64,000 nucleotides of DNA from Anaeramoeba ignava BMAN (GCA_028826165.1 JAPDFW010000125.1:1-64000), one strand, 5' to 3'. Positions 8,409-61,679 are shown, counted from the first letter of the stretch. Notes: generated by a model not told the origin, from the letters alone. Numbers and translations are program-made.

Positions 8409-8451
8409 TTTTTTAATTTAAAAAAAAACAAAAAATGAAAAAAATGAATAA

Positions 8452-17900: not shown

Positions 17901-20806
17901 AATATAAATTAAAAATATAAATTAAAATATAAATTAAAAATAAAAAATAAAAAAATAAATTAAAAAATAAATTAAAATATAAATTTATTAATAAAATAAA
18001 AATATAAATTAAATATAAATTTAAATATAAATTAAAAATATAAATTAAAATATAAATTAAAAATATAAATTAAAAATATAAATTAAAAATATAAATTTAT
18101 TAATAAATTAAAATATAAATAAAAAAAAATATAAATTTAAAATATAAATTTAAAATATAAAAAAATATAAAAATTAAATATAAAATTAAAATATAAATTA
18201 AAATATAAATTAAAATATAAAATAAAATATAAATTAAAATAGAAATTGAAATATAAATTAAAAATATAAATTAAAATATAAATTAAAATATAAATTAAAA
18301 ATATATATTAAAATAGAAATTAAAATATAAATTAAAATATAAATTAAAAATATAAATTAAAATATAAATTAAAATATATAAATTAAAAATATAAATTAAA
18401 ATATAAATTAAAATATAAATTAAAATATAAATTAAAAATATAAAATTATTAATAAAAAAATAAAAATATAAATAAAATATAAATTAAAATATAAATTAAA
18501 AAATATAAATTAAAATATAAATTAAAATATAAAATTAAAATATAAATTAAAAATATAAATTAAAAATATAAATTAAAAATATAAATTAAAAATATAAATT
18601 AAAATATAAATTTAAAATATAAATTAAAAATATAAATTAAAAATATAAATTTAAATATAAATTAAAATATAAATTTATTAATAAATTTATTAATAAATTA
18701 AAATATAAATTTATTAATAAATTAAAAATATAAATAAAAATAGAAATTAAAAATATAAATTTAAATATAAATTAAATATAAATTAATTAATAAATTTAAA
18801 TATAAATTAAAATAGAAATTAAAAATATAAATTAAAATATAAATAAAAATATAAATTTAAATATAAATTAAAATATAAATTTAAATATAAATTAAAATAT
18901 AAATTAAAATATAAATTTATTAATAAATTAAAATATAAATTTATTAATAAATAAAAATATAAATTAAAATATAAATTAAAATATAAATTAAAATTCATAA
19001 ATATAAATTAAAATATAAATTAAAAATAAATTAAAATATAAATTAAAATATAAATAAAAAATAAAAATATAAAATATAAAAATTAAAATATAAATTAAAA
19101 TATAAATTAAAAATATAAATTTAAATATAAATTAAAAAAATATAAATTAAAATATAAATTAAAAATATAAATTAAAATATAAATTTATTAATAAATTAAA
19201 ATATAAATTAAAATATAAATTTATTAATAAAATAAAAAATATAAATAAAAATATAAATTAAAATATAAATTAAAAATATAAAATTAAAACATAAATTAAA
19301 AATATAAATTAAAAATATAAATTAAAATATAAATTAAAATATAAATTAATTCAATAAATTTAAACATAAATTAAAATATAAATTAAAAATATAAATTAAA
19401 AAATATAAATTAAAATATAAATTTAAATATAAATTAAATATAAATTTATTAATAAAATAAAATATAAATTAAATATAAATTAAAATATAAATTAAAATAT
19501 AAATTAAAATATAAATTAAAAAATATAAATTAAAATATAAATTAAAATATAAAATAAAAATATAAATAAAAATATAAATTAAAAATATAAATATAAATAT
19601 AAATTAAAAATATTAAAATATAAATTAAAATATAAAATAAAATATAAAATAAAATATAAATAAAAATATAAATTAAAATATAAAATTATTAATAAATTAA
19701 AATATAAATAAAAATATAAATTAAAATATAAATTTATTTATAAATTAAAATATAAATTTATTAATAAATTAAAATATGAATTAATTAATAAATTAAAATA
19801 TAAATTAATTAATAAATTAAAATATAAATTAAAATATAAATTAAAATATAAAATTAAAATATAAATTAAAATATAAAATTATTAATAAATTAATTAATAA
19901 ATTAAAATATAAATTTATTTATAAAAATATTTTTAAAAAAAAAGTCCAAAACACTCAGGAAAAAAACATTTCACAATCAAATTAATCCATAAAAGAAGAT
20001 GCTTAATTTCCCCAAATAAATCAATCCTCAAAAGAATGAAAACACACAAACAATCATTCTTAGAACAAGAACAAGAAAGCAAAAATCAAATCTTACGAGA
20101 ACATTTTTTTCAACTGACAAGAAGCTTCACACTTCCACTTGAAAATTACTTCATATCATTAATGCCATTAGGAAGAGACGTTGTGCCATTTTATCATCCA
20201 CCCATTTTAAAAGGATTTTGTGAAAAGGAGTTTATTGGATTCTTATTATCAACAGAACCAGGAAGGCATTTAGAAGGAGGAGAAAAAGAAGGATGGGAAT
20301 TAATCTATAGAAAATTCATTCGTTCCCCAAATTTCGAGGCTTGGTACCAACAAAGAAGAGAAGAGGCAATCTATTCAATCCAAATTTACTACAGAAATAG
20401 CTTCCTTAGTATGAATTCTCGTGATATGCTTGCTAAATTAACTGATCTTCAAAAAGAAGATCTTCTCAAAAAAATTGATAATTCAATTCTCGCTTTTGCA
20501 AAAGATAAAGAATTGGCTTCAAAATTAAAAATTTTTAGACAGGATGTAATGAATGATCTTCCTCAACAAAGAATAACTGAAATTCGCAGAAAAACATTTC
20601 GCAAATTGAAAAAGAAATCAAAAGATTTTATTGATGAAAATCCTGAAGCAGTTTTTGAAGAAATCCAAATTCCTGATTCAATTAATATTGATGATGATAA
20701 TAATAATAACAATAATAACAATAACAACAATAACAACAATAATAATGATGATTCCCAAAGTTCAGAAAAAGAATTTATTGAAGATGATAGTGATGATGAA
20801 AAATAA
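14909..20806 (+). CDS. DENND6: DENND6/FAM116-like DENN protein (Rab GEF), 4 exons
   Basis: Exons 14909-14975, 15050-15107, 15174-16196, 19945-20806. Motifs ISFPDTN, LYGFAYYRR, LWLLWQLVITGEPILVIAPTP, LREHFFQLTRSFTLPLENYF, YRKFIRSPNFEAW match DENND6. Confidence 0.85.
16197..19944 (+). repeat. 3.75 kb intron filled with a degenerate (aaattaaaatat)n microsatellite
   Basis: GT at 16197 and AG at 19943-19944 join the DENND6 frame. The interior is almost purely A/T tandem 11-13-mers. Confidence 0.9.
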
Positions 20807-21042: not shown

Positions 21043-22653
21043 TTAATAATAAAAAAAATACCTTTGAGTTAATTCTTTGGATTTTCTTCGTTTTGCTTCA
21101 GGATCACCCAATTCAATACCATTAGCAGGAAGAGCCAAACTGGAAGTCACACCAGCTAATGAATAGGTATTTGCACCGCGATTGGAGAAGCCCTTTATAA
21201 CTGTTGTTCTTCCATCTACGGGTGTAGGTTTAACTTGAGAATAAGGGGTTGATGAAGTTTTTAGACCGGGAATAACAGAAGAGAAGCCATCATAATACAA
21301 GGCCTTCTGCTTAAGTTTTTTCTCCTCGGATTTGCCTCTATTTTGGATCTCCTGGAGATGTATTTTGAGGTTGTCTGTTCCTTCTGTAAGCAAGCCAAAG
21401 CCTTTAGTTCCATCAAAAGAAGTTTCTTCCGGAATTCCGAATTTCAAGCGCGATTGCTGTTTTCGGAGTTCAGTCATCTTGAACTTTTCTTTCCTCTTTC
21501 GAGCTCGTCTTCCTCCCCTGCGTTTCTTCTTGCCATCATTGGGAACGGGCAAGGGTTTGGGCATTTTTGCAGGCGGAGGTTCTTGTAATTTTTCAATATA
21601 ATTTTCCACTTCTTTTCTCAATTTTTTTCCTTGCGCTCCTTTTTTGGATTGTCCGACAAGATCTATTCTTGCTGCCAATATACATTTTGCCGCCACTTGT
21701 CGGACAACCTTTTTTCTGAGCTCCACTGGGGTTTTTTCTACAAGCTCGCAGTCCAAAATTACTCCAGCATAACGAACTGAACGAGCGGATGAAAAACCTT
21801 CCAAATTTTTCCTATCTAATCCTAATAACTGAATACCCGACGCTGGCATCCGAGTTAAAGACTCTATTCCCCCAGATATTCCAATTAATTCTGCTGCTAT
21901 AGAGGTCCCCACTACTGCTGATAAATTTGGGGCTACAACCTTCATTTGGCTTTCAACATATTTTAGTATTTTTTTCTTCTTCTCATTCAATTCTAATAAA
22001 CTATCACATTTTTCAATAGTTTGTTTTAGCTCATCCTTCGTGAGCTTCTTTCCAGATGTTGTTGTTATCGACATTGATATTATCATTACTGTTGCTGTTG
22101 GCACAATTTTGTTGAGATCCAATTTTGTTGTGTTTTGCTTGTTCTTGATCATTTTTACAACTCTTGCATAATCAAGTGGAGATGTTACAATCGTCTCTAG
22201 TTCTGGGAATTTATTCGAGTAAATATCTCGGATTTGTTTGTATATGCGAAGTATTGAATTTGTGACTTCGTTAATTTGGTAATTGCATTTTTTTAAAAAT
22301 TCATGTTTTGGATCGTTTTTAATAAATTGTGATTTATTATTGATTTTTTCAATTTCATTCAATATTTCTTGAGTTTCATCTAAATTTTCAATTTCAATTT
22401 CAATTTCATTTGAATTTTGATTTGAATTTTGATTTGAATTTTGATTTTCATTTTGATTTAAATTTTCATTTGAATTTTCATTTGAATTTTCATTTGTATT
22501 TTCATTTGTATTTTCATTTGTATTTTTTTGGGTAAGAACATCTTTTGGAATTTGTGTTGGATTAATTTGTCCTTCTTGATTCTCTTCTTTTTCAAGATTA
22601 ATTCTTTTATCAAAATTTGTAATATCAAAAAGAAATTGTTCAGCAAGTGACAT
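21043..22653 (-). CDS. PRP31: U4/U6 snRNP protein Prp31, intronless
   Basis: NOP domain (YSNKFPELETIV, APNLSAVVGTSIAAELIG, AKCILAARID) plus the Prp31 C-terminal KPLPVP..KKRRGGRRARKRKEKFKMTELRKQQSRLKFG. Confidence 0.97.
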   Translation of the reverse strand: MSLAEQFLFDITNFDKRINLEKEENQEGQINPTQIPKDVLTQKNTNENTNENTNENSNENSNENLNQNENQNSNQNSNQNSNEIEIEIENLDETQEILNEIEKINNKSQFIKNDPKHEFLKKCNYQINEVTNSILRIYKQIRDIYSNKFPELETIVTSPLDYARVVKMIKNKQNTTKLDLNKIVPTATVMIISMSITTTSGKKLTKDELKQTIEKCDSLLELNEKKKKILKYVESQMKVVAPNLSAVVGTSIAAELIGISGGIESLTRMPASGIQLLGLDRKNLEGFSSARSVRYAGVILDCELVEKTPVELRKKVVRQVAAKCILAARIDLVGQSKKGAQGKKLRKEVENYIEKLQEPPPAKMPKPLPVPNDGKKKRRGGRRARKRKEKFKMTELRKQQSRLKFGIPEETSFDGTKGFGLLTEGTDNLKIHLQEIQNRGKSEEKKLKQKALYYDGFSSVIPGLKTSSTPYSQVKPTPVDGRTTVIKGFSNRGANTYSLAGVTSSLALPANGIELGDPEAKRRKSKELTQRYFFYY

Positions 22654-24085: not shown

Positions 24086-27000
24086 TCAATCAATTTTCGC
24101 AAGTTTTTTAAATTTTTCTTGATCTTCTTTACTTAATAAACCTTTAGAAACAAGTGTTTGAATTTTACTTTCCAAAATTTTATAATTTGCAATTAATTCT
24201 TCACGAGGTTTATTATCTTTATCTTTTTTATTATCTTTTTTATTATCTTTTTCATTTTCATTTTCATTTTCATTTTCATTTTCATTTTCATTTTCATTCT
24301 CATTTTCATTCTCATTTTCATTCTCATTTTGATAAGAATTTGGATCAATACCATTGAAAAAATTAGAAGGGAAATTTTGTTGAAAAGATTGATTGGGAGA
24401 TCCTAAAGGAAACTGGGTATTATATTGAGGAAAAAATGGGACTGGATAATAAATAAAAGGGAATCCAAATGGAAGTGGATTATAATTTTGAACAGGAGTT
24501 CTTCTTTTTCTGATGATAATTCTTTTCTTTGAAGAATGGCGATGTTTAGGGAATTTCTCGCGGGTTGATTTTCTTGAGCTTTTTCTGTGGTGACTAGTGT
24601 GTTTTTTGTGTCTGGATGAACGATGAGATGAACGATGTTTTGGAGATGTTGATTCGATTGTTGATTCTGTAGTTAAATCTGAGGAATCCAGAATTGTGAT
24701 TGAGGAATTGCTATAAGAATCTGAGTCGTCACTTGATGAATATGAGAATCGTGATCGATGTTTTTGTCTGTGATTCAAATCAACTGCTCCAATTTGTGGT
24801 ATTTGTTGTGCAGATTGCATGTTGTTAGGATTTGATAGTAATTGTTGTTGATTTCCTAATACATTTCCGATTTGGTTCATTTCGTTGATTGTTTGATTTG
24901 GGATGTTTTGAGGATATTGTGCTAAATTTTGTAATTGATTCTCGTTTTCATTTGGTTTGGAATTTTGGGTTTCTTGTTGAGCTTCATTTAAATTGACATT
25001 TTTTTCATTTCCTGAATTTTCTTCTTTTTGGATACTATTTTCATTGCTATCTGAATGGTAAGAAATTTCCTTTTCTTTTTCTTTTTCCTTTTCTTTTTCT
25101 TCAATTTCCATTTCTGAATTTTGATTGGAATCAGTGGAAACTTTGTAATTGTTATTTTTGGTTTCAATTTCTCCGTTATCTTTCGAATATTTTTCATTTT
25201 CTTCTTCTTGATTGCTTTCTGATGAAGAATTAGATTGTGCTGTTTCATTGTATTCTTTTTGGGAATCTTGATCCATGTTTTTCGAAAATTTTTTGTGATT
25301 TTTTTTGGAATCTGAATGAAGAGAGTGTTTTTTACTGTGATGATGTTTCTTTTTGCTTTTTTTCTTTTCTGAGTGAGATTTCTTATGTTTTTTGTCTTTA
25401 TTAATTCGGTGTCTTGTTAGCATTCTTTTTTTTTCAGCTTTTGATGTAAAATATTCGTCAGTATCAGAAGATGTTGATTCATCTTGTGATTTTTTTCTTT
25501 TTGATTTTGATTTTGGTTTTAGTTTTGATCGTGATTTCGATTTTGATTTTGATTTAGATCTTGATCTTCTTTTGCTTTTTTTTGGAGGTGGTCTTGATTT
25601 TTTTAAGCTCATTGCTTTTTTTTCTGTCATTACTTTTGGATCTAAAAGTTTTCTACATTTTTTGAGCCAAATAAAGAATGTATAATCGATTGTTTTATCT
25701 CTTCCAGTTCTTTGGAAATTGAAGTATTTTTGCATCCAAGATTTGATTGTTAGATCTGAATGATTTGAGCCTAAAAATTTGATTTTAATTTTATAAATGA
25801 ATTTTAATTTTAATTTTAATTTTAATTTTAATTTTGATTTTAATTTTAATTTTGATTTTAATTTTAAATTTTAATTTTAATTTTGATTTTAATTTTAATT
25901 TCAATTTTGATTTTAATTTTAATTACCTTCTAAAGTATTTACTCCTGCTTTTGCTGCTGCTTTTATTTGAGAAAGTCGTTGATCTTTTTTAGGATAATCT
26001 TTAGATATTTCAACATAATTACGAACCATTCCTCGAATTTGAAAACTTGTATAATCTTCAAAATTATAATCTTGATCATTTGGATCTGGATTAATCAATA
26101 AAGGATTTTGAGAAATAAAATTTTCGAGAGTAACTTTTTTTGATATTGATTTTAATTTTGATTTTGATTTTAATTTTGATTTTGATTTTGATTTTAATTT
26201 TAATTTTAATTTTAATTTTTATTTTGATATTAATTTTAATTTTGATTTTAATTTTATTTTTTATTTTTAATTTTGATTTTGGATTTTGATTTTGATTTTG
26301 ATTTTGATTTTAATTTTGATTTTAATTTGAATTTTGATTTTGATTTTAATTTTGATTTAAATTTTAATATTAAATTTTAATTTTGATTTTAATTTTGATT
26401 TTAATTTTAATTTTAATTTTAATTTTAATTTTGATTTTGATTTTGATTTTGATTTTAATTTTAATTTTTAATTTTGATTTTAATTTTAATTTTAATTTTG
26501 ATTTTATTTTAATTTTAATTTTAATTTTGTAAGTACGCTCTTTAGATTCATTCAAATTAGAAGGTGATTCATTTTGAGTTTCATCATCAGGATATTCTTC
26601 ATAATTTGGTTTTTTTTGGTCACTCAATTCATCTTCTTGTAAATTAGTAGATTGATTTAAAACTTTATAATCCAAATTAGAAACTTCACTATCAACAGAA
26701 TCGGAATCAGTTTCATCATTACGAACAAATTTAATATTTGGGTCATTTTCATGAATTTCATGTTCATTTGATTCTTCATCATAATCAATTTCTGTTGTCA
26801 TAATTGGATAAGTTTGAGGTTTAACTTGATTTCCAATTAAATTTTCTTGTTGTTCTTCATATGGAGTTAATTCGTTTTCATTAATACTTATGTTTGAGTT
26901 TTCATAAAGAGTTACATTTCCATATCCTTGTTCATAACTCTCACTTGTTTCATCATCTTCTTTGTTTGTTTTGCTTTTTTTCATTGATTTTTTAGTGTTT

Positions 27001-28721
27001 TCTTCATTTTCATTTTCATTTTCATTTTCATTTTCATTTTCATTTTCATTTTCATTTTCATTTTCATTTTCATTTTCTTCTGTTGTTTCTTGAATAATAT
27101 TTGTATTTTCTTCTAAATTTTCTTGATTTTCATAATTTTCAAGAGTTTGAAGATTTGGATCATTTACATCATTTAAATCTTTTACATCATTCAAATCATT
27201 TGCATTTTCTCGGAGTTTTTCATCTATAATTAAAATTAAAATTAAAATTAAAATTAAAATTAAAATTAAAATTAAAATTAAAATTAAAATTAAAATTAAA
27301 ATTAAAATTAAAATTAAAATTAAAATCAAAATTAAAATTCAAAATTGGAATTGGAATTAAAATTAAAAAATTATAATTAAAATTATAATTAAAATCAAAA
27401 TTAAAATTAAAATTGGAATTAAAATTAAAATTAAAATTGGAATTAAAATTAAAATTGAAATTATAATTAAAATCCAAAATTGGAATTGAAATTAAAATGA
27501 ACCTTCAATTTCTTTTTTTAACCATTCAGAGAAATAATAATCATATTCAGGAATATGAGATCCTTTTAAATAACGTGAAACTTTATTCCGAACTGAAGAA
27601 TTCATTTTATTTGTTATTTTATCCAAAACATTAGGAAGATTTGCTCGAAATGCTGCATCTTGTTGTGTGATATTATTTCTTTTGAGATATTTACGAACTT
27701 TTCGAGCAGTTGCTGATGGTTGTGATGTGTAAGAATCTATTATTGATTATTATTTAAATAAATTTAATCCACATTAAATCCACATTAAATCCAAATAAAT
27801 TAAATCCAAATTAAATCCAAATTAAATTCCAAATAAATTAAATCCACATTAAATCCAAATAAATTAAATCCACATTAAATCCAAATAATTAAATTCAAAT
27901 TAAATCCAAATAAATTAAATCCAAATTAAATCCAAATAAATTAAATCCAAATTAAATCCAAATTAATTAAATCCAAATTAAATCCAAATTAATTAAATCC
28001 AAATTAAATCCAAATTAAATCCAAATTAAATCCAAATCAAATCCAAATTAAATCCAAATTAAATCCAAATTAAATAAATCCAAATTAAATAAATCCAAAT
28101 TAAATCCAAATAAATTAAATCCAAATTTAAATCCAAATAAATTAAATCCAAATTAAATCCAAATAAATTAAATCCAAATTAAATCCAAATAAATTAAATC
28201 CAAATTAAATCCAAATAAATTAAATCCAAATTAAATCCAAATAAATTAAATCCAAATTAAATTCCAAATAAATTAAATCCAAATTAAATTCTAAATTTAA
28301 TTTCATTTCTAATTTTAATTTCATTTCTAATTTTAATTTTAATTTCATTTCTAATTTTAATTTTAATTTCATTTCTAATTTTAATTTTAATTTCATTTCT
28401 AATTTTAATTTTAATTTCATTTCTAATTTTAAAATATATTTTGAAATTTGTTTTAAATCTGTTTTGGAAATAAAAAAGAAAAGAGATTGATAAAATATAG
28501 AATAAATAATATAAATCGATTACATTTCTTTCTAGAAGGACTTTTTTTTATAGACTCTTGAAATGGATCATTTTTAACTAAAAAAAAAAAAGACAAAAAA
28601 AATTTTTTTTATATAAAATTAATTTCCAAAAATTTTAAAAGAAATAATCAAATTTTTTTTCTTAGTTTTGATTATAAAACAAACTTTCACTTTTTTCGTT
28701 ATTTAGTTCTTCAACGTTCAT
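24086..28721 (-). CDS. Low-complexity nuclear protein with two lambda-repressor-like (HNF1/POU-specific-like) HTH domains, putative transcription factor, 6 exons
   Basis: Exons 28721-28685, 28577-28524, 27736-27503, 27223-26537, 26133-25927, 25770-24086 splice in frame. Domain 1: VRKYLKRNNITQQDAAFRANL...VSRYLKG...YFSEWLKK. Domain 2: VRNYV...LSQIKAAAKAGV...MQKYF...FFIWLKK. Also basic and Q/N-rich tracts. Confidence 0.7.
27737..28523. repeat. Intronic (aaattaaatcc)n 11/15-mer plus an (atttctaattttaattttaatttc)n block
   Basis: Direct tandem repeats within intron 2 of the HTH gene. Confidence 0.88.
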
Positions 28722-36832: not shown

Positions 36833-37010
36833 TATTATAAAACAAATAATAAAATTAAAAGAAAATAATAAACAAGAACAAATAACAAAATAACAAACAA
36901 AAAAAACAAAATAAAGAAATAAGAAATAAAAAAAAAAATGAAAAAAAAAAAATAAAAAATTTTTGCTTTTTATATTGTAAAAAAAACACTTAAAAAAAAG
37001 AGAGGATCAA

Positions 37011-38190
37011 TTTAAAATACTTAAAATTAATTAAAATATTTTATCCGATTTTATTTAAATTAATTAAAAATTTAATTAAAAATCTAATTAAAATATTTTA
37101 TTAATTTTATATTAATTTTGATAATAATTTTAATTTATAATTTAATTTAAAAATCAATTTAAAATAATAAAAATTAATTAAAATATTTTATCCGATTTTA
37201 TTTAAATTAATTAAAAATCTAATTAAAAATCTAATTAAAATATTTTATTAATTTTATATTAATTTTGATAATAATTTTAATTTATAATTTAATTTAAAAA
37301 TTTATTTAAAATACTAAAAATTAATTAAAATATTTTATCCGATTTTATTTAAATTAATAAAATCTAATTAAAAATTATTAAAATATTTTATTAATTTTAT
37401 ATCAATTTTGATAATAATTTAATAATTTAATTTAAAAATCAATTTAAAATAATATAAATTAATTAAAATATTTTATCCGATTTTTATTTAAATTAATTTA
37501 AAAATTTAATTAAAAATCTAATTAAAATATTTTATTAATTTTATATCAATTTTGATAATAATTTTAATTTATAATTTAATTTAAAAATTTATTTAAAATA
37601 ATAAAAATTAATTAAAATATTTTATCCGATTTTATTTAAATTAATTAAAAATCTAATTAAAAATCTAATTAAAATATTTTATTAATTTTATATTAATTTT
37701 AATAATAATTTTAATTTATAATTTAATTTAAAATCAATTTAAAATAATTAAAATTAATTTAAAATATTTTATCCGATTTTATTTAAATTAATTAAAAATC
37801 TAATTAAAAATCTAATTAAAATATTTTATTAAAATATTTTATTAATTTTATAATTTAATTTTTAATTTAAAAATAAAAATTTTAAAATATTTTATCCGAT
37901 TTTTATTTAAATTTTAAAAATCTTTAAAAATAAATTATTTAAAATTAAATCAAAAATTAATTAAAATATTTTATCCGATTTTATTTTAAATTAATTAAAA
38001 ATTTAATTAAAAATCTAATTAAAATATTTTATTAATTTTATATTAATTTTGATAATAATTTTAATTTATAATTTAATTTAAAAATTTATTTAAAATAATA
38101 AAAATTAATTAAAATATTTTATCCGATTTTATTTAAATTTTAATTAAAAATCAATTAAAAATCTAATTAAAATAATAAAATTTTGATATT
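37011..38190. repeat. Satellite D, about 147 bp unit, about 8 copies, intergenic
   Basis: ttttatccgatttt recurs at about 37043, 37190, 37337, 37475, 37624, 37771, 37894, 37973 and 38121. Confidence 0.93.
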
Positions 38191-41538: not shown

Positions 41539-44500
41539 ATGGAAGTTCATTTTAATATTCAAAAAGTACCAAATCTTGCGATATTGATTTCATTTGCAGA
41601 AAGAGATTTAAGAGTTAAATTCATTCCAACAAATGAAAATTATTATTCATCAATTTTAAAATTAAATTCAAAAGAAGATCCAATTTTATGTGGAGATTAT
41701 GCAATTGCAAAATATTTTGCTAGAATTTCAAAAACTCCTTTATTATCTTCTTCACAAAAACCTGAAGAGCTTAGTTTGATTGACCAATGGTTGGATTTTG
41801 TTATTAGTTATCCTCAAAATCAATTCTCTGATTTGTTTCCTATGATTAATGCTTATTTGACTTTTAAAACTTTTTTTGTTGGTTATTCTCTTTCTATTGT
41901 TGATTATGCTATTTTTACAAATTGTTTTGAATGTAGATTTCAAAATTCATTTTAAAATCAAAATCATTTATAAAATTCATTTTAAAATTCATTTTAAAAA
42001 TTAAAAAAATTAAAATTAAAATTAAAATTAAAATTAAAATTAAAATTAAAATTAAAATTAATATTGAAAAAAAATTAAAATTAAAATTAAAATTAAAATT
42101 AAAATTGAAATAAAAAATTAAAATTAAAATTAAAAATTAAAATTTAAAATTAAAATAAAAATTAAAATTTGAAATCAAAATCAAAATCATTTTAAAATTC
42201 ATTTTAAAAATTTTAAAAATTAAAATCAAAAATTCAAAAATTAAAATCAAAAAATTAAAAATTAAAATTAAAATTAAAAATTCATTAAAATTAAAATTAA
42301 AATTCATTTATAAAATTAAAATTAAAATTAAAATCAAAATTAAAATTAAAATTAAAATTAAAATTAAAATCAAAATTAAAATTAAAATTAAAATTAAAAT
42401 TAAAATTCATTTTAAAAATTAAAATTAAAATTAAAATTAAAATTAAAATTAAAATTAAAATTAAAATTAAAAATTAAATTTTAAAATTCATTTTAAAAAT
42501 TAAAATTAAAATTAAAATTAAAATTAAAATTAAAATTAAAATTAAAATTAAAATTAAAATTGAAAAAATTAAAATTAAAATTAAATTTAAAATTAAATTT
42601 AAAATTAAAATTAAAAAGGGTATCAACAACCAAAAGAATCTCAATATCCTAACTTTGATAGATGGTTTAATTATATGAAAACTATTCCTGAATGTATTAG
42701 ATTAACAAAAATGAAACCTTTTAAAGTTGAAGAAAAAAAACCAGAAGTTGAAAGTAAAAAGAAAACAATTGGAAAAAAAGTAGTTCAAGAAAAAAAAGCA
42801 GCATATTTTGAATTACCAAATGCTGAAATGGGAAAAGTTGTAACAAGATTTCCACCAGAACCAAGTGGTTATCTTCATATTGGTATAAATTAAAATTAAA
42901 ATTAAAATTAAAATTAAAATTAAAATTAAAATTAATATTAATATTAAATTAAAATTAATATTAAAATTAAAATTAAAATTAAAATTAAAATTAAAATTAA
43001 AATTAATATTGAAATTAAAATTAAAATTAAAATTAAATATTAATATTAAAATTAAAATTAAAATTAAATTTAAAATTAATATTAAAATTAAAATTAAAAT
43101 TAAAATTAAAATTAATATTAAAATTAATATTAATATTAAAATTAAAATTAAAATAATTAAAATTAAAATTAAAATTAAAATCAAAATCAAAATCAAAATT
43201 AATATTAAAATTAAATATTAAAATTAAAATTAAAATTCATTTTAATATTAAAATTAAAAATAATATCAAAATTAAAATTAAAATTAAAATTAATATTAAA
43301 ATTAAAATTAAAATTAAAATTAAAATTAAAATCAAAATTAAAATTAAATATTAATATTAAATTAAAATTAAAATTAAAATTAAAATTAAAATCAAAAATT
43401 AAAATTAAAATTAAAATAAAAAAGGACATGCAAAGGCAGCGTTATTAAATCAACATTATGCAAATCAATATAAAGGAAAACTTATAGTAAGATTTGATGA
43501 TACTAATCCAGTTACAGAAACAGAAGAATATGAGAAATGCATTCGGGAAGATTTAGACAAATTAGAAATCAAAGCAAATTTAATAACACATACAAGCGAT
43601 TCATTTCCAGTAATATTCAAGTATGCAGATCAAATTATTCAACAAGGAGATGCTTATGTTGATGATACAGAATCAAAGGATATCAAAATACAAAGAAAAC
43701 AAGGAATTGATTCCAAAAACAGAAACAATTCAATTGAAGAAAATCTTAAACTTTGGAATGAAATGAAAATTGGATCTCAAAAAGGTTTAACTTGTGTTTT
43801 GAGAGCTAAAATTTCTATGACTCATGAATGTAAAGCTATGAGAGATCCTGCTTTGTTTCGTTGTGAATTAACCCCTCATTATAGATTGGGAACTCAATAT
43901 AAATGTTATCCTCTTTATGATTTTGCTTGTCCAATTGGTATTTTAAAATTTAAAATTCATTTATAAATTAAAATTTAAAATTCATTTATAAAATTAAATG
44001 AAAATTCAAATCAAAATTAAAATTATAATTAAAATTAATATTCAAATCAAAATTAATATTCAAATTAAAATTAAAATTAATATTAAAATTAATTTGAAAA
44101 TTTGATAGTATTGATGGTGTAACTCATGCTCTTCGTTCTGATGAATATAATGAAAAAAATTTAATTTATCATTGGGTTTGTGAACATTTAAAGATTAGAG
44201 AACCTCATATTCACACTTTTAGGTAGAAAAATTAAAAATTAAAAAATTAAAAATCTAAAAATTTAAAAATTAAAAATTAAAAATTAAAAATTTAAAATTT
44301 AAAAATTAAAATTAAAAATTAAAAAATTAAAAAATTTAAAAATTTAAAAATAAAGTCGATTAAATCTACAATACACACCATTATCAAAAAGAGTATTAAG
44401 ATGGTTTGTACAAAACAAAAAAACAAATGGATGGGATGATCCACGATTCCCAACAATTCGAGGAGTAATGCGAAGAGGGATGACAGTTGAAGCATTACAA

Positions 44501-45214
44501 TACTTCATTCAACTTCAAGGAAGCTCACGAACAGCAAACTTAATGGAATGGAACATGTTATGGTCTTTTAACAAATCAATTATTGATCCAAAAATTCCAA
44601 GATTTACTTCAATTGATGAAAAAGATTATGTTGTTGTTGAAATTGAAGGAGTTTCTGATAAAATCGAAGTCAAACAATGGCCGAAATTGAAGACAAATCC
44701 TTCTTTGGGAATGAAGGATGTTCGTTATTTAAACAAAATTATCATTCAACAATCAGATGCAGTTTTATTGAAAGAAAATGAGGAGATAACTTTGATTAAT
44801 TGGGGAAATTGCATCATTAAACAAATTCATAAGGATGGGAATAACTCAAAAATACTCAGAATTTCGGCTGTTTTACATTTGGAAGGCGATTTTAAAAAGA
44901 CTAAATGGAAGCTTACTTGGCTCCCAAATACTGATGATTTGTTGAAAATTAAATTGGTTGACGTCGGTTATTTAATTACTAAACAAAAACTTGAAAAAAA
45001 AGATCCCTTTGAAAAATTTGTTGCTGAAAATACTTGGTTTGAAGAATTTGTTTTGGGTGATCCCCAAATTGCTCAACTTAAAAAGGGGGATATTTTTCAG
45101 TTGGAAAGAAAGGGTTATTATATTGTTGACAATGAATTTTCAAAAGAAACTAATTCAGTAGTTCTTTTGAATATTCCTGATGGAAGAAAGAAGAAAGAAC
45201 CCAAAAAGAAATAA
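41539..45214 (+). CDS. EARS: Cytosolic glutamyl-tRNA synthetase with N-terminal GST-like domain, 5 exons
   Basis: Exons 41539-41932, 42619-42882, 43425-43937, 44102-44222, 44356-45214. Motifs [72 protein letters not shown]. The intron 3 acceptor is non-canonical as given. Confidence 0.96.
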
Positions 45215-45822: not shown

Positions 45823-47631
45823 ATGAAATTTTTAAATTTTTTAATTTTCTTTTTATTTTTTTCAAGTAATTTCACATTTATCCTTCATTTAAATGAAGAA
45901 GCTTTTGAAAATTCACTTAAACAATTTGATTACTGGATTATAAAATTTACAGATAATCAACCAGAAAGTCACACATCAGTAAAAATTTAATTCAAAATTT
46001 AATTCAAATTTAATTCAAAAATTAATTCAAAATTTAATTCTAAAATTAATTCAAAATTTAATTCAAAATTCAAAATTTAATTCAAAATTTAATTCAAAAT
46101 TTAATTCAAAATTTAATTCTAAAAATTAATTCAAAAATTTAATTCAAAATTTAATTCTAAAATTAATTCAAAAATTAATTCTAAAATTAATTCAAAATTC
46201 AAAATTTAATTCAAAATTTAATTCAAAATTTAATTCAAAATTCAAAATTTAATTCAAAATTTAATTTAAAATTTAATTCAAAATTTAAAATTTAATTTCA
46301 AAAATTAAATTCAAAAAATTCAAAATTCAAAATTTAATTCAAAAATTAATTCAAAATTTAATTCAAAAATTAATTCAAAATTCAAAAATTAATTCAAAAA
46401 TTAATTCAAAATTTAATTCAAAAATTAATTCAAAATTCAAAATTTAATTCAAAAATTAATTCAAAATTTAATTCAAAAATCAATTCAAAATTTAATTCAA
46501 AATTTAATTCAAAAATTAAAAAAATAGAGAGAAGTCTTATTCACAAAATTCGTTTACAAATTTAAAACATCATTCCATTCAGGAATTGTTAATTGTAACA
46601 AAGAAATTAATCTCTGCAAAAAATTTGGAATTCAAGAATATCCAACTTTCAAACTATTTGCCAAACAAGAATTTAAAGCAGATTTAACATTTGATAAAAA
46701 TTACACAGTTGATGATATAAGAAATCTATTGAATAACGACTTAGACATCGCTAAAAACATAACTTCGCTAAAGGAAATAAAAGAAAGCGAAGACCCACAA
46801 ATCATTCTTTTAATCCAATCAACAAACGGACACGAAAATGAAATTGTTTCCAATTATTTAAATGTTGCCTTAAAATTATTTCCTTTTCGAAATTTTTATC
46901 TTTTTAAATTTGATAACGAAAACGAACTTTCCGAAACAGGTTTCCCAAAATTTGTTGTGGAAGAGGCCAAACACTTCCACGGTGCTTTACTTAACTTTAA
47001 TTCTGGAAAGTTTGCTTCGCTTAAAGTTTTGCCAAGAGATGAAAATCTCTTTTATGAATTTGTTAAAAAAACTTTTGAATTCGTTTTCCAAGAATTAACA
47101 CCAAAAATATATGAAAAATTAGTTTCCGAAGAAAGAAATATTGCCGTTTTGGTCGTTGATACTTCAAACGAAGATACTCACTTGTTCAAGAATTCTTTTG
47201 AATTTTATGCTCATTCCAAAATTGGTGATTTTAACTTTACTTGGATTGATTTTGAAAATTTGTCAAAAATTCCAAAAAAAATTTCAGTTCAAAAAAATCA
47301 ACTTCCGAGAGTTGTTGCTATCATTTCTTCAGAGGATAAGCTTTATATCCAGCCAAGAGAGATTGGCATTGCTCGCTTTATTAATGCTATTTTGGAAAAT
47401 AAACTTGATGATGCAATTAATCAAGCAAAAAAACAACTTGATTTGCAAAGAAATCCTTCAAAAAATGAAAATGTCAAACCAGATTCTCAAAGTTTTTGGA
47501 ACAATGAAATTTGGAACACAAAAAATACTTTGATTGCTTTGATTTCTTTGATTGTGATTATTGGATCTGGTTGTTTAGGATATAAATTATATCCTGTAGA
47601 AAAAGAAAAAAAAGAGAAAAAAGAAAAATAA
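45823..47631 (+). CDS. PDI/TMX-like thioredoxin-fold ER membrane protein lacking CxxC, 2 exons
   Basis: Exons 45823-45978 and 46528-47631. Signal peptide, WIIKF..., VNCNKEINLCKKFGIQEYPTFKLF, b/b-prime-like domains (FTWID, LPRVVAI), C-terminal TM and di-lysine tail KKEK. Confidence 0.8.
45979..46527. repeat. Intronic (aattcaaaa(t/a)tt)n 12-mer
   Basis: Tandem array filling the single intron of the PDI-like gene. Confidence 0.9.
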
Positions 47632-53402: not shown

Positions 53403-56400
53403 TTAATTTGAGTTGGAATCATCATCAAGAATTGGAAGAGGAATTTGTAAAATATCATCATGAGTCAAAGAATTACGAGGAGTAAGTTTTGAAGAACTTT
53501 CTGAATTTTGAATTTTAATTTGAATTGGATTTTGAATTTGGTTTTTATTTTGATTATGATTATTAGCGAAATCAGAATTCCATTTTTCAACATTATTATC
53601 ATCATCATCATCATCATTATCATCATCATTTTCATCTTTTTCATCAGTCTCATCTTTTTGGTCTGTTTCATCATCAGTTTCTTTTGCTTCAGTTTCAATT
53701 TCTTGATTGTTTGAATTTTGATTTTTTTTTGGATCATTATCATTATCATTATCATCAATAATAATATTATCATTTTCAAAACCATCTTTTTGATTTTGAC
53801 TTTTAGTGTTTGAATCAATATGAGAAGTATTATCATTATCGGAAGAATTAGAATCATTGATCTCATCAAGTTCAAGATCAGTCTTATTTGGCTGAGAAGT
53901 TGTTCTCGGAAGATTTTTTCTCTTTCCATAACCTTTGACAATATACGAAATTGCGAAAGAAAGAAGAACAAGAGAAACAAAGACGCAAATTGAGAAAAGA
54001 ATAACGCCGAACACTTTGAGGCCTAAGGAAAGAAAACCCAGAAGAAGGAGATAGAGCCCAATCACGAGGATATCATAGGCTGAATAGTTGATAGTGTGGA
54101 TGATGTGGTCTTGATGAGGCTTCATGATGACTGTGAAAAGAATCATAAGCAAAATGAGGACAAATACAATCCATCCGTTTGCTTTGAAGAAAAAAAGAGC
54201 GCCGACTATGAGAATAAATTTGAACGTGATATCAACAAGTTCCCACCAATAACGGTTTTTTTGGAAACGCAGATACATCCATCCATAAAGCTTGGCGTGC
54301 TTAAGCGAGAATTGATGTTTCTTGACTCTGTAGAGAATAAACACAAATAAAAGCGGGATTAAAACAACATAAAGAATAACCGCAATTATGAACAGGACAA
54401 GAAATTTGTTCCATTTAGAGCTTCCCAGAATGATTGTTGGGTCGCTGTTCAGTGTTTTTTGTCCGTCGCCTTGAGTCGTGTATGAAAAAGGTTTCAAGGC
54501 TATAAATGCTAAAGGAATAAACATGAATTTGAGAACAATTGATGATGAATACACAAGTTTGTTCTTGAATTTCTCCATCTTCTCAAGCTTTCGTGTGTTG
54601 TGGCGGTAATACAACCGCGCAATAAGATAGAACAATCCATATCCAGCTAGGAAATAAAACGGAAGGAAAAATGCAATAAGATATTTGTCGTAAAACGTGA
54701 AATTCCATGAGCATTCAGGACTTGCAAGTGCGTCAAGATTGAAACAGAAAATACCAAAGAAATATCGGAAGAAATTCTTGATAACATCAGGAAATGGAAG
54801 ACTCATCGAGAAAACAGCGCCGAAAAGCTGGAAAAATGTTCCTAAGATGTTGGTAGCGGGAAAGTTCACACCAACACCGCTGAATCGGAAAAGAAGCGCA
54901 CAGATCACAATCAGGAAGATTATAAACGCAAGAAAGATTGCCCATGTGTTTTTCGGACATTTTTTGCAATCGTAATTGAAATGGAAATATCCAGGAATGC
55001 AATTATAACAAAGGGAATTAGGATCTCTTCCAAACGCGCATTTGTCTGCGCCAGGACAGATGTCTGGGATTTGAGATGAGCAGATGTAGCAGAAGGATTG
55101 TCCAAGCCCATCGTTGAATTGCCCTGCAGGACATGTTGTGCAGAATGTTGATCCTGGATCTGCTGCATATGTTCCTGAAGGACATTGTGTGCATTGCACT
55201 GTTTTTTGCTGGTTTGTGTATGTTCCTGATTCGCATGGTGTGCAATATTGTGTGTCTCCCTCGGAATACTTTCCTTCAACGCATCCAAAACAACTCGACC
55301 AATTCGATCCAAAATATCCTGGTGGACAATTGTGCAATTTGATTGCAAAAGCATCGTATTGTTCTGATTGATCCCGTAATCCGTTCCATGCTACAAACTG
55401 CGGGGATCTTGCCAATCCAACAAGAACAGGTACTGTTTCGTTATTAAAAACAACTGCATTCGCTCCTCCGCCAATAATCCCGGAAACAATAATCTCGCTC
55501 ACATTAGGGTTGAATAAAATGAAATAGGATTGCATATAATAAATATCTTCAGGATCACTTGCGTAATTGTAGAGATAATTCCCGCTCAATGGGTTTCCTC
55601 TTCCCGTTACAAACACCTGTTTTTGGTTATCAAAAAGAATGGAAAACACAGAATCGGAATGCATATCAGAGCCAAGATACGAAGAATACAACAACTGCGA
55701 GAAATTCCAATTATATTTCGCAATAAAACCATCAGATAAATCAGTGTAATTAGGCTGGAATCCATCCGTTGTATTAGGCAAATTGGTTGAGAATGTTGAT
55801 CCTCCAATCCACGCAAATCCGTCATCATCATAAACAACCACAAGACAACGATCGTTTTCATCCCCTTCATAATATTCTTTGTTCCAAATGTCTGTGAAAT
55901 TTGTCTGATTAACAATAACAAGAAAACAAGCAACAGTTGTGTATATTTTCTTGCCATGCATATCCGGTAACAACTCCCGCGCAGTGGATCCAACAAGAGC
56001 AATTGCCTCGTGACTAGGATTAAATGCTATTGAATAAATATGAGTGAACAATCCTCCATCCAAACAAATAAAATCTTGCAATTTGGTTGCATTTTCATCG
56101 AGCTTCAAAAAAACTGCTGATTGTCCTTCAACTCCAATGCATCTTTCATTAGTACTTTCTTTGTTAGTATCGTCCATAGGGAAATATCCTTCGGAATCTG
56201 CAGAAATATAAATAGAATCATTCACAAGAACCAAATCAGTTGCAATTAAATTTCTTGTTCCGCAAACTAAAGTTGAGAAAAGCATTTCTTGTCCGTCGTT
56301 TGATAACTTGAAAAGTACTATCTGGTTCGCTTCATATGTGCCGCATGAGCTCATATATGCATTAGTTGATGTTGGGAAATCTCCATCAAACATCTTCAAA

Positions 56401-59400
56401 TATTTCCCAACAATAACAGGATTATCTTTCGAATCAAGAACAACTTTGATTCCTTCTTCAACTGAACGTGTTCCAATATAAGTTGAGAATAAAATTGACA
56501 ATCCATCCGGCGCAAATTTAACAACAAATATATCATTTCCTCCTGAATAATATTGATTCAATGGATCAACAACAGGGAAATCTCGACTGTTGGTTGTCCC
56601 AATAACAAACATATTGTTGTTACTATCCATTGCCAAACTATATGCAGAATCAGTTGTTCCTCCTCCAAGAAAAGTTGAAAATCCAGGATCGATAATAAAA
56701 TTGTTGGAACTTGTTTGGAATTTTCGATCGTTAATTTCAAATCCAAATATTAAATGTTTCTGTATCATTTTCTCACTTGTTTTTGTTGATTCGATAGAGA
56801 TGATTGAATATTTGCATTTTAACTTTTCTCCGTTTTGGAACGCAATAGGTTTTGATTCCCCAAAAAGTTTTTTACTTGTGTTTTTTTCAAAGAAATTCAG
56901 GGTTTGTTTTTCAGAATTGAAAATGAAGTCAACATCTTCGTTAGCTTCTTTTGCTTCAGAATATGTGTATTTCCATTTGATTTGTGAAAGGATATCCTTT
57001 GTGTTTTGTTGTGTTTTCGAATGGAAAACAAATTCACTTTTAAGTTGGCTTCTTCTGTCGAGTTTAAAATGCAAATCAACATTGGGATACACATTTTCAT
57101 ATCTAATTTCTTTGAATGTATCCAAGTTTTTAAACCAATTAGATGAATCTTTTCCAATCATAAAATTAGCTTTTCCGATTGTTTTTTTTGATGAAATGTT
57201 GTTGAGATTGCCGTTAATTGGTTTCATTTCGATTTTTCTATTATTGATAATGAAAGTAATTGATTCATTGGTGAAAAATACTTCTCCTGCACCAAGAAGT
57301 TTAGCGATAAATTTGATGTTTGATTGTGAGTTGTTTTGGATTATGTTTTCAACAATAACAACAGGGAGAGGATTGAATGTTTGATTTGGAGGAGAGTATT
57401 GAAAATTTGATTTAAAATTTGATCTAAAATTTTTATATAAATTTTAATATAATTTTGATATAAATTTTTATATAAATTTTAATATAAATTTTGATATAAA
57501 TTTTAATATAAATTTTGATATAAATTTTGATATAAATTTTGATATAAATTTTGATATAAATTTTGATATAAATTTTATTATAAAATTAATTATAAATTTG
57601 ATTATAAATTTGATATAAATTTTTATATAAATTTTTATATAAATTTTGATATAATTTTTGATATAAATTTTGATATAAATTTGATTATAAATTTAATTAT
57701 AAATTTAATTATAAATTTAATTATAAAATTAATTATAAAATTGATTATAAATTTGATTATAAATTTAATTATAAATTTGATTATAAATTTAATTATAAAT
57801 TTGATTATAAATTTGATTGTAAAATTAATTATAAAATTGATTATAAAATTAATTATAAATTTAATTATAAATTTTGATATAAATTTAATTATAAATTTGA
57901 TTATAAATTTGATTGTAAAATTGATTATAAATTTAATTATAAATTTAATTATAAATTTGATTGTAAATTTAATTATAAATTTGAATATAAAATATAATTA
58001 TAAATATAATTATAAATTTAATTATAAATTTTTAATATAAATTTAATTATAAATTGATTATAAATTTAATTATAAAATTTGATTATAAATTTGATATAAA
58101 TTTTTGATATAATTTTTATATAAATTTGATTATAAATTTAATTATAAATTTAATTATAAATTTAATTATAGATTTTGATTGTAAATTTAATTATAAATTT
58201 GATTATAAATTTAATTATAAATTTAATTATAAATTTAATTATAAATTTAATTATAAATTTAATTATAAATTTGATTATAAATTTAATTGTAAAATTGATT
58301 ATAAATTTGATTGTAAAATTAATTATAAATTTAATTATAAATTTTGATTATAAATTTAATTATAAATTTAATTATAAATTTAATTATAAATTGATTGTAA
58401 ATATAATTATAAAATTGATTGTAAATATAATTATAAAATTGATTATAAAATTTTTATATTTAAATTTTTGTTATAAATTTAATTATAAATTTGATTATAA
58501 ATTTGATTATAAATTTGATTATAAATTTGATTATAAATTTTTATATAAATTTGATTGTAAATTTGATATAAATATGATTATAAATTTGATATAAATTTAA
58601 TTATAAATATGATTATAAAATTAATTATAAATTTAATTATAAATTTAATTATAAATATGATTATAAAATTAATTATAAATTTAATTATAAATTTGATTAT
58701 AAATTTGATTGTAAAATTAATTATAAATTTAATTATAAATTTGATTATAAATTTGATTATAAATTTAATTGTAAAAATTGATTATAAATTTGATTGTAAA
58801 TATAATTATAAAATTGATTGTAAAATTAATTATAAATTTAATTATAAATTTGATTATAAATTTAATTATAAATTTGATTATAAATTTAATTATAAAATTG
58901 ATTATAAATTTAATTATAAATTGATTGTAAATATAATTATAAAATTGATTATAAATTTAATTATAAATTTTATTATAAATTTGATTGTAAATTTAATTAT
59001 AAATTTAATTATAAATTTAATTATAAATTTAATTATAAATTAATTATAAATTTAATTATAAATTTAATTATAAATTTAATTATAAAATTTAATTATAAAT
59101 TTGATTGTAAATTTAATTGTAAATTTGATTATAAATTTGATTGTAAATTTAATTATAAATTTAATTATAAATTTGATTATAAATTTAATTATAAATTTAA
59201 TATAAATTTTTATATAAATTTTTATATAAATTTAATTGTAAATTTAATATAAAATTGATTATAAATTTAATATAAAATTGATTATAAATTTTTATATAAA
59301 TTTGATTGTAAATTTGATTGTAAATTTGATTATAAATTTAATTGTAAATTTAATTATAGATTTTGATTGTAAAATTGATTATAAAATTTTTATATTTAAA

Positions 59401-59976: not shown

Positions 59977-61679
59977 TTAATTCTTCTTTATATTTTGATT
60001 TTGATTTGGATTTTGATTTTGATTTGGATTTATATTTGTTTCTTGTTTTGTTGGTGTTTTAGGTGTAATTCTATTTAATAAAATTCTAATTTCATTTAAT
60101 TCAGAATTAATTAAATTTTGATTTTCTTTTAAAATTCCATTTTCAATTAATTTTAATTTTTCTGTTAATTTTGAAATAATTTCTTTTTGATTTTGAGTTT
60201 GAATTTGTTTTCTTTGAATTAAATCTCGATTTTTTTCTTTTAATTGATTAATTTGATTTGTAAATTTTGAATTTTCATTTTTAATTTTATCTAATTTTTC
60301 ATTGATAGATCTTATATTTTGATCTTTTTTTTGAAGATCTTGATTTAATTTTGAATTTGAATCTGTTAAAAGATTAATTTTTTGATTTTTATTTTTAATA
60401 ATTTCTTGAAATTCTTCAGCATTTAAAGGAGATTTTCTTTTTAAAAAATTAGGAGAAATTTTTTGATTTTTAATTGGATTTTGATTTGGATTTTTAATTG
60501 GATTTTTAATTGGATTTTGATTTGGATTTTTAATTGAATTTTGATTTGAATTTTTAATTGGATTTTGATTTGAATTTTTTGAAAGAAACATTATTTTTGT
60601 ATTATATTCTTCAATTTCTTGATCTTTTTGTTCAATTATTTTCTTTAAAGAAATGATAACTTTTTCTAAATGATCATTTTTTTCTAACAAAATTGTATTT
60701 TGATGGGATTTATTTTTAAGAAAACCTTCTAAAGAATTAATCCTTTCTCTTAATTGTTTTGAAATATTTTCCTTTTCAATTAATTCTTGATTCATTTTAC
60801 TCTTAACAATATTAATCAAATGTAATTGTTTTTCAAGATGAACAATTTTTTTCTTAAAGATATCATTTGATTTAGTTAAATTTTCAATAACTTTGCTTGC
60901 AGTTTCAAGTTGTGAAAAAATTTTTTCCAATTCTTTAGTTGTTTGAGCAAAAGTTGTTTGTAAAGAAAATAACTCTTTTTTTGATGATTGTAATTGGGTA
61001 TTTAATTGCTGAATTTCTTCCTGTTTTTGTATAATTTCTGTTTCTTTGTTTTGAATAACTTTTCCTAGTTCCTCATTTTGTTCTTCAATGTTACATTTCA
61101 AAGTATCAATTATTGCATTTTTTTTTTCATTTTCTTTTTTTAATCTATCATAATCACTATAAGAAATATTAAGATTATGCTGATATTGCTCAAGGATTGT
61201 TAATTGTTTTTTGAGTTCTTTCATTTGTGATGCATTTTTATCCAGTTTCTTTTGTATTTGTTCAAAATAATGAGTTTCATTTTCAAGTTGAATTTTTAAA
61301 TTATCAATTTCTTCATTTAATTTTTCATTTTCTTCTTGTGATTCTGAATTTTGTTTTCTTAGAATTTTGCAATCTTTAAGCACACTTTCTAATCTATCTT
61401 TTAATGCAATTTCTTTTTCTTCTAATTGTTTATTTTTCTCTTTAAAATTTTGTATTTTTGTTTTCATATTTGAAACTTTTTTTTCTTTTTCTTTTTCATT
61501 TTCATTTTCATTTTCTTTATGATTTTCTTTTTCTTCGTTTAAATTAGTTTCTTCTTTATTTTTCTATTTATTTTAATAATTTAAATTTTTATTTTTAAAT
61601 TAAATTTTTTTCTATAATTTAATTTTTTAATTTTTACTTTTTCTTGATTTTTTTGAAATTTTTCAAAATTTTTTGACAT
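59977..61679 (-). CDS. Long coiled-coil protein of unknown function, 2 exons
   Basis: Exon 61679-61638 splices in frame to 61563-59977. Continuous K/E/Q/L heptad pattern. Confidence 0.8.

What the first reader, a model, noticed from the sequence alone, without database searches (positions are those of the whole stretch)
44356..45214. Synonymous codon endings flip from A/C to T/G across long exons, independent of gene orientation
Seen (hand counts): in GluRS exon 5 the first 17 four-fold-degenerate codons all end in A, whereas at 44884-45127 only 1 of 24 ends in A and 17 end in T. The pattern resets at introns. GluRS exons 1 and 3 repeat it. DENND6 exon 3 is A-ending near 15450-15620 and has almost no A endings at 15900-16125 (ctt gtt act cct gct, gag/aag). 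The minus-strand DENN last exon (12378 to 11116) and the 4 kb exon at 57423-53403 show it in their own sense. The pattern is reverse-complement symmetric about each exon, so neither tRNA adaptation nor simple transcription-strand bias explains it. Inference: a strand-asymmetric mutational process radiating from the AT-rich introns and spacers, for example very frequent replication initiation, unwinding or repair entry there, or selection for exon-definition or chromatin signals.
Basis: partly seen in the sequence, partly recalled or inferred. Interest (0 to 1): 0.75.

Follow-up and report, generated by a model that had tools for sequence, protein, structure and literature searches.

The report
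Mirror-image mutation halos around AT-rich introns
In this very AT-rich microbial eukaryote, silent codon positions within about 400 bases after an AT-rich intron or spacer favour A and avoid G, while those within about 400 bases before one favour T and avoid C, on either strand; this is likely a mutation scar left where DNA breaks in the AT-rich stretches are chewed back and refilled, which would let break sites be read from sequence alone.

Summary
Across 15 hand-built gene models, 18 of 20 long exons are A-richer at the 5' end than at the 3' end, on both strands. It is not an exon-long gradient. It is two fixed-range halos of about 400 nt: after a non-coding stretch A rises and G falls; before one T rises and C falls, with mirror-equal strength. 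Exon interiors are flat. Start-codon, acceptor, donor and stop edges behave alike, AT-rich coding patches carry the A/T part too, and sequence context does not matter. That favours a DNA-level mutational bias. Sign and range fit 5'-to-3' resection from breaks in AT-rich DNA, which is inferred, not shown. Against: four-fold C/G does not flip, only 14 of 25 introns reset individually, 4 of 15 genes lack the slope, and no polymorphism was available. The scan noted a matching C/G version on other genomes (e1-7131326, e1-9714643). New variant of a known kind; interest 0.6.

The parts
44356..44650 (+). GluRS exon 5, 5' halo: A-ending, G-poor synonymous sites
   Evidence: first 17 four-fold sites all A; 0 of 26 two-fold purine codons end in G in the first 300 nt
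44884..45214 (+). GluRS exon 5, 3' halo: T-ending, C-poor two-fold sites, up to the stop codon
   Evidence: 17 T, 1 A of 24 at 44884-45127; Pfam tRNA-synt_1c domains confirm the frame
44223..44355 (+). GluRS intron 4 (predicted, 133 nt, GC 3%): short AT-rich source of the exon 5 halo
   Evidence: GT..AG and open joined frame; fitted weight 1.21 +- 0.24; splice not checked by reads
43938..44101 (+). GluRS intron 3 (164 nt, GT..AT as the window reads)
   Evidence: skipped by contigs of runs X3, X4, X5; weaker fitted weight 0.61 +- 0.24
44102..44222 (+). GluRS exon 4: T-ending throughout, no reset after intron 3
   Evidence: 10 T, 1 A of 11 four-fold sites
43425..43937 (+). GluRS exon 3, A-to-T
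   Evidence: A19/T5 to A5/T18
42619..42882 (+). GluRS exon 2, short, no forward gradient
   Evidence: A3/T7 to A12/T5; AUC 0.37
41539..41932 (+). GluRS exon 1, A-to-T from the start codon
   Evidence: A14/T4 to A2/T20
15174..16196 (+).
   Evidence: edge counts A15/T0 and A3/T34
19945..20806 (+). DENND6-like exon 4, A halo after the 3.7-kb intron; no T halo at its stop
   Evidence: A19/T3 and A7/T7
11116..12378 (-). DENN gene last exon, A-to-T in its own sense
   Evidence: A16/T3 and A9/T26
21062..22653 (-). PRP31 exon 1, A-to-T
   Evidence: A14/T7 and A12/T23; orthologue control
24086..25770 (-). last exon of an unnamed gene, A-to-T
   Evidence: A27/T5 and A3/T11
26537..27223 (-). internal exon of the same gene, A-to-T
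   Evidence: A12/T4 and A8/T18
46528..47631 (+). thioredoxin-like exon 2, A-to-T
   Evidence: A16/T7 and A9/T13
53403..57423 (-). 4-kb exon: T halo at the 3' end, G loss but little A gain at the 5' end, flat interior
   Evidence: A17/T14 and A7/T16; 150-nt profile
59977..61563 (-). coiled-coil exon, AT-rich throughout: counter-example without the gradient
   Evidence: AUC 0.42; GC3 0.06

Best explanation
Silent sites within about 400 nt of any AT-rich stretch are biased in mirror fashion (the strand running 5'-to-3' into the stretch has less C and A and more T), and this is likely a mutational halo, likely made when breaks in the AT-rich DNA are resected 5'-to-3' and the exposed single strand is damaged and copied. 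Shown: the bias, its range, its mirror symmetry, its independence from edge type, strand and sequence context. Inferred: that AT-rich introns and spacers are nucleosome-poor and break-prone (meiotic or mitotic); that resection leaves the into-the-stretch strand single-stranded; that cytosine deamination gives C>T and base loss with insertion of A opposite the lesion gives A>T and G>T on that strand (textbook chemistry, recalled). Halos from both sides would cancel in short exons and leave them GC-poor.
For: Mirror symmetry: A-vs-T coefficients +1.04 (5') and -1.27 (3'), sum -0.23 +- 0.17; G in two-fold codons falls at 5' edges only (-1.96, z -9.3; 3' 0.01) and C mainly at 3' edges (-1.82, z -10.2; 5' -0.59). 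All edge types act: ATG 0.96, acceptor 0.89, donor -1.15, stop -1.65; introns 0.65 and intergenic 0.78. Fixed range: a Gaussian of 350-450 nt is the best edge kernel; 686 interior sites in 9 exons show no trend (rho -0.002). Strength rises with spacer length and levels off (0.42, 0.77, 1.07, 0.99 for <100, 100-200, 200-700, >700 nt; 44 of 46 well-estimated spacers positive). AT-rich coding patches give the same A/T halo (z 4.96 and 4.73; reached by 1 and 2 of 300 shifted masks). Same direction in 8 of 8 four-fold families and Ile, and before all four next bases; no CpG or TpC preference; codon positions 1-2 barely move (|z| up to 2.4). Precedents: human break hotspots have strand-asymmetric C>N and A>N mutations in the resected flanks (PMC7615360, section 4 and passages); Arabidopsis SPO11 breaks are raised in AT-rich promoters, terminators and introns (PMC5880243, passages).
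Against: No mutation was observed: the four runs laid showed no difference in GluRS exons 3-4. In four tandem arrays 58 single-copy changes gave A>T:T>A of 4:7 in left halves and 13:8 in right halves, if anything the wrong way (few events, inside the deserts). Four-fold C and G are not mirrored (5' C 0.07, G 0.04; 3' C 0.09, G 0.03), and PRP31's last third has 25 C against 4 G. Around AT-rich coding patches the G/A and C/T parts are not clearly one-sided, G/A often leaning the wrong way. Genes differ strongly (LRT 67, 14 df); 4 of 15 have negative slopes and 14 of 25 introns reset individually. The 2.1-kb intron has a weak halo (0.46). The odds shifts (about 3-fold for A/T, 6-7-fold for G and C) need the local process to outweigh background mutation. 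Human resection is 1-2 kb a side, longer than this halo. Whether the organism has meiosis is unknown. Gene models are by hand, kernels were chosen after the fact, and z values treat sites as independent (exon-flip p=8.5e-5, gene-flip p=8.9e-4 are the safer figures).
Confidence: 0.4

Rival explanations
1. Transcription- and splicing-coupled mutation: polymerase pausing, R-loops or repair factors differ just after and just before each intron or gene end, giving different mutation regimes on the two strands, as proposed for fungal gene ends.
For: Exon-edge kernels fit well; the housekeeping gene GluRS has one of the steepest slopes (2.94) and genes differ; same C-early, G-late polarity as in fungi (PMC3315797, abstract and passages); earlier scan notes e1-9714643 and e1-7554276 read it this way (unchecked).
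Against: Needs two separate processes that happen to be equal, opposite and of the same range; acts alike at ATG, splice and stop edges; AT-rich coding patches without a splice site carry the A/T halo; one-sided models fit far worse than two-sided (12.7 and 25.2 against 52.5); outward transcription from a spacer would expose the wrong strand (inference); fungal AT skew is reported flat.
Confidence: 0.18
2. Selection on DNA for chromatin: A after and T before each AT-rich gap helps position or remodel nucleosome arrays on exons.
For: Mirror symmetry, AT-rich anchoring and a range of 2-3 nucleosomes fit; strength levels off above about 200 nt of spacer; selection for poly(dA:dT) at nucleosome barriers is reported in human (PMC4966569, passages).
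Against: The A excess is no stronger where it extends an A run (next base A 0.84, others 1.05-1.36); spacer weight does not track A/T-run density (rho 0.09); no visible nucleosome-scale oscillation in 30-nt bins (low power).
Confidence: 0.15
3. Replication starts often in the AT-rich gaps, and the first few hundred bases of leading strand carry a polymerase-specific error bias.
For: In yeasts the leading strand is rich in A and C (PMC3459929, passages), the sign seen here to the 3' side of each gap; geometry is mirror-symmetric and ignores genes.
Against: Fork polarity should persist or fall linearly across an exon, but interiors are flat; the four-fold AT skew jumps by about 0.7 across a gap (+0.36 against -0.30) where the yeast origin GC jump is 9% (PMC3459929); gaps lie about 1 kb apart, so each could fire only rarely (inference).
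Confidence: 0.14
4. Selection on the RNA: splice-enhancer motifs, codon adaptation along the message, or exon self-pairing between an A-rich start and a U-rich end.
For: Codon trends near exon ends occur in many species (PMC4476162, passages); 21 of 45 acceptors here are A-rich rather than pyrimidine-rich, so exonic signals might matter.
Against: Opposite sign at the two ends; present at ATG and stop edges; weak at 30-60 nt and strongest at 90-240 nt; mRNA-position models fit poorly; five exons fold no better than synonymous shuffles (z -1.1 to +1.4, 14 shuffles each); 28 PRP31 orthologues average -0.06 for the same statistic.
Confidence: 0.05

Closest known systems
Strand-asymmetric mutation in the resected flanks of meiotic break hotspots (Hinch et al. 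2023, PMC7615360; also PMC11922761)
   Same: Mirror symmetry about a centre, loss of C and A on one strand, limited range, independent of gene direction.
   Different: There it is seen as rare variants around PRDM9 sites over +-2 kb with CpG and deaminase contexts; here it is standing composition at nearly every AT-rich gap, about 400 nt, context-free, with a large A>T part, and no break data.
[quoted passage not shown]
   Same: C favoured over G early and G over C late, reaching synonymous sites.
   Different: That pattern is per gene and its AT skew is flat; here AT skew is the main signal, four-fold GC skew does not flip, and intron edges act like gene ends.
Replication-associated skew at yeast origins (Marsolier-Kergoat 2012, PMC3459929)
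   Same: A- and C-rich strand leaving the centre; read at third codon positions.
   Different: Origins about 40 kb apart, GC jump 9%, slow decline over kilobases; here centres about 1 kb apart, a far larger jump and flat exon interiors.
Exon-end codon trends from splice enhancers (Wu and Hurst 2015, PMC4476162)
   Same: Codon choice depends on distance from the exon edge and on flanking intron length.
   Different: Enhancer motifs are purine-rich at exon ends; here the two ends have opposite sign, the range is hundreds of bases and non-splice edges are included.

Membership tests
Break-hotspot (resection) asymmetry | Reverse-complement symmetry about the centre | tested here: met
   +1.04/-1.27 and -1.96/-1.82; imperfect for four-fold C/G
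Break-hotspot (resection) asymmetry | C and A lost on the strand whose 3' end faces the centre | tested here: met
   as composition only; strand assignment follows from 5' resection geometry (PMC11922761 passage) and is my inference
Break-hotspot (resection) asymmetry | Limited range with no effect beyond it | tested here: met
   range shorter than human
Break-hotspot (resection) asymmetry | Asymmetry visible in new or rare mutations | tested here: inconclusive
   no variants; 58 array changes lean the other way
Break-hotspot (resection) asymmetry | Mapped breaks or single-stranded DNA at the centres; Spo11 and resection genes present | not testable with these tools
   no genome held; no break maps
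Fungal 5'/3' GC skew | GC skew flips from C to G at four-fold sites along the gene | tested here: not met
   four-fold C vs G z -0.3
Fungal 5'/3' GC skew | AT skew flat along the gene | tested here: not met
   +0.36 to -0.30
Replication-origin skew | Leading strand rich in A and C (yeast sign) | tested here: met
   sign matches for A and for two-fold C over G
Replication-origin skew | Skew persists or declines steadily between centres | tested here: not met
   interior rho -0.002, 686 sites
Splice-enhancer codon trend | Confined to splice edges and strongest next to the junction | tested here: not met

The most novel reading that the evidence does not exclude
In this lineage nearly every AT-rich intron and spacer is a recurrent DNA-break site, and break repair, not translation, sets synonymous codon use: a site's third base is predicted by its distance and side from the nearest AT-rich tract. 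The codons then hold a fossil map of break sites and resection length (about 400 nt beyond the tract), and the same process would explain the C/G versions that the scan noted in other AT-rich-intron genomes and perhaps the fungal gene-end skew.
Probability: 0.3. Interest if true: 0.82.

Novelty: new variant of a known kind. Interest (0 to 1): 0.6.

Why it matters
If mutational, it shows a local repair process strong enough to override genome-wide mutation and dictate codon endings, and it gives a sequence-only way to map breaks and single-strand tract length in protists without genetics. It offers a testable cause for the unexplained gene-end skews of fungi. Whatever the cause, codon-bias, GC3 and selection estimates in such genomes are confounded by exon length and distance to introns.

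Tried and rejected
No whole genome is held, so all counts rest on 15 gene models (60 exons, 2,742 four-fold sites) in 64 kb; the BTB frame at 267-1097, the unannotated 1-11115 region and the low-complexity 5' part of the gene ending at 38205 were left out. mRNA-position, gene-end and one-sided models were rejected on fit. 'Only long AT deserts act' fitted worse than all non-coding gaps (25 against 45). Local amino-acid composition explains little (4.1). Tandem-array changes gave no usable polarity. The unannotated 2900-6800 region is somewhat T-richer on its right but is confounded and uninformative. RNA folding showed no gain. No RNA holder was listed as such; three runs nonetheless gave contigs that skip GluRS intron 3; intron 4 was not checked by reads. 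The PRP31 search found no close relative (35-49% identity among the 120 listed of 545), so the lineage is not established; a resemblance to AT-rich anaerobic amoebae is recalled only, and the listing was not followed up. Literature: searches returned 0 papers, one and two (listings), none describing this pattern; subscription papers are not covered, and Touchon et al. 2004 on splicing-coupled skews was not available. No supplements were read.

Full report
Setting. The window is from a very AT-rich eukaryote whose introns and spacers are mostly 6- and 12-base repeats with 0-20% GC. No whole genome is held. PRP31 has no close relative among the 120 listed hits (35-49% identity), so the lineage is not established. 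I built 15 gene models by hand (60 exons); the joined frames have no internal stop, Pfam supports the frames of 11 of the 16 pieces scanned, and one junction, GluRS intron 3, is skipped by contigs of runs X3, X4 and X5. The other junctions are predictions. The BTB frame, the region 1-11115 and one low-complexity gene start were left out.

Observation. In the 20 exons of 380 nt or more, four-fold AT skew by quintile is +0.36, +0.25, +0.02, -0.11, -0.30; G-ending two-fold codons rise from 4% to 18% and C-ending ones fall from 21-28% to 12%. In 18 of these 20 the 5' edge is A-richer than the 3' edge (my count). Flipping whole exons or whole genes gives p=8.5e-5 (60 exons) and 8.9e-4 (15 genes). 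Both strands show it (z 8.0 and 6.4). Limits: four-fold GC skew does not flip; the 21 exons of 150-379 nt are flat; T lies later than A in only 24 of 39 testable exons.

Shape. With codon family and next base controlled, position in the mRNA gains 7-13 log-likelihood units and distance to exon edges 47. Both edges are needed (12.7 and 25.2 alone, 52.5 together) and their coefficients are equal and opposite within error. G in two-fold codons is lost at 5' edges only and C mainly at 3' edges, by -1.96 and -1.82. So the GC dome of each exon is two one-sided losses. The pooled A/T profile is weak at 30-60 nt, highest at 90-240 nt and near zero beyond about 420 nt; a Gaussian of 350-450 nt is the best edge kernel tried; 686 sites more than 500 nt from both edges show no trend. 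Overlapping halos would cancel in short exons, which fits their flatness and may explain why only 14 of 25 introns reset when tested one by one, though that result also counts against a strict reset. GluRS itself shows the unevenness: T persists through exon 4 after the true intron 3, and the switch to A comes at intron 4.

What is the source? Start-codon, acceptor, donor and stop edges all act, as do introns of 170 nt or less. Strength rises with gap length and levels off above 200 nt; 44 of 46 well-estimated gaps are positive; A-run and TA content do not matter. A model that ignores annotation and uses local AT richness at non-third positions fits better than exon edges (310-312 against 280). 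AT-rich patches inside exons add a one-sided A/T effect that 1 and 2 of 300 shifted masks reach, but their G/A and C/T effects are not clearly one-sided. The bias has the same direction in all eight four-fold families (z 2.6 or more in seven; valine 1.0) and isoleucine, before every next base, with no CpG or TpC preference; codon positions 1 and 2 barely respond. It is not a property of the protein: of 80 PRP31 loci fetched, 50 were distinct and 28 had enough sites; their first-minus-last-third AT skew averaged -0.06 (SD 0.34, maximum 0.53) against 0.60-0.62 here, or 0.29 over a shorter range. Five exons fold no better than synonymous shuffles.

Mechanism. A context-free, protein-neutral, mirror-symmetric, fixed-range bias anchored on AT-rich DNA most simply reflects mutation. 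On the strand that runs 5'-to-3' into the gap, C and A give way to T. That is the strand left single-stranded when a break in the gap is resected (5' ends are resected, PMC11922761, passages). Human hotspot flanks show strand-asymmetric C>N and A>N changes (PMC7615360, section 4 and passages; the text I read does not state the side, so the strand match is my inference), and Arabidopsis breaks are raised in AT-rich promoters, terminators and introns (PMC5880243, passages). Deamination and A insertion opposite abasic sites would push every damaged base toward T (recalled chemistry). None of this chain is shown here. I give it 0.4. Against it: no variants, array changes leaning the other way (4:7 left, 13:8 right for A>T:T>A among 58 events), unmirrored four-fold C/G, strong differences among genes with 4 of 15 negative, and the strength required.

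Rivals. Transcription- or splicing-coupled mutation (0.18) needs two matched processes and does not explain the coding-patch effect. Chromatin selection (0.15; PMC4966569, passages) predicts enrichment in run-forming contexts, not seen. Frequent origins (0.14) match the yeast sign (PMC3459929, passages) but not the flat interiors or the size. RNA-level selection (0.05; PMC4476162, passages) fails on sign, range and edge type. About 0.08 is left for causes not listed.

Known and new. It works like hotspot-flank asymmetry but membership is untested for lack of break or variant data. It fails membership of the fungal gene-end GC skew (PMC3315797, abstract and passages), where AT skew is flat. Searches found no description of an exon-edge A/T mirror of this kind; PMC9645720 (passages) added nothing; subscription literature and supplements were not seen. 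The scan's unchecked notes describe the C/G side on other genomes: e1-7131326 (C avoided before and G after long AT-rich introns, as here), e1-9714643, e1-7554276 and e1-9716460. These suggest recurrence but are not independent proof.

Verdict. Real and strong, better described as two 400-nt halos per AT-rich gap than as an exon-long flip; cause open, break resection most likely. New variant of a known kind, interest 0.6.

Noticed in passing
window 43938-44101 (+): GluRS intron 3 reads GT..AT; contigs of runs X3, X4 and X5 join 43937 to 44102 with no shift possible, passing over an AG 7 nt further on that would break the frame. Either a true non-canonical intron or a wrong letter in the window; no listed DNA piece spans the acceptor.
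   Followed up: partly
window 33037-32978 (-): Predicted GC..AG intron in the RCC1-ARF gene; not checked by reads.
   Followed up: no
window, 45 predicted acceptors: 21 of 45 have four or more A at -8..-3 instead of a pyrimidine tract, 15 have four or more T.
   Followed up: no
window, 120 nt upstream of start codons: TTTTCATTTT lies upstream of 12 of 14 start codons (61 copies in the window); it resembles an initiator-type core promoter (recalled, untested).
   Followed up: partly
window 35495-32580 (-): One predicted gene joins RCC1 repeats to an ARF GTPase (Pfam), with a stretch between them that looks like an F-box (recalled; no Pfam hit).
   Followed up: partly
window 1272-2989, 6662-8333, 8455-10958, 37006-38172: Intergenic tandem arrays with 158-, 314-, 144- and 147-nt units, close to one or two nucleosome lengths.
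   Followed up: partly
window 3000-6660: Non-repetitive region of 11-19% GC without a long open frame and with G over C on the + strand; possibly a decayed gene or element on the minus strand.
   Followed up: partly
window 1097-110 (-): BTB-domain frame whose start and end seem to lie in other frames; frameshifts or a pseudogene.
   Followed up: no
window 55470-55020 (-): An A-ending patch (33 A, 6 T over 300 nt) in the middle of the 4-kb exon with no AT-rich tract beside it, in Gly/Thr/Cys repeats; partly codon-family composition, otherwise unexplained.
   Followed up: no
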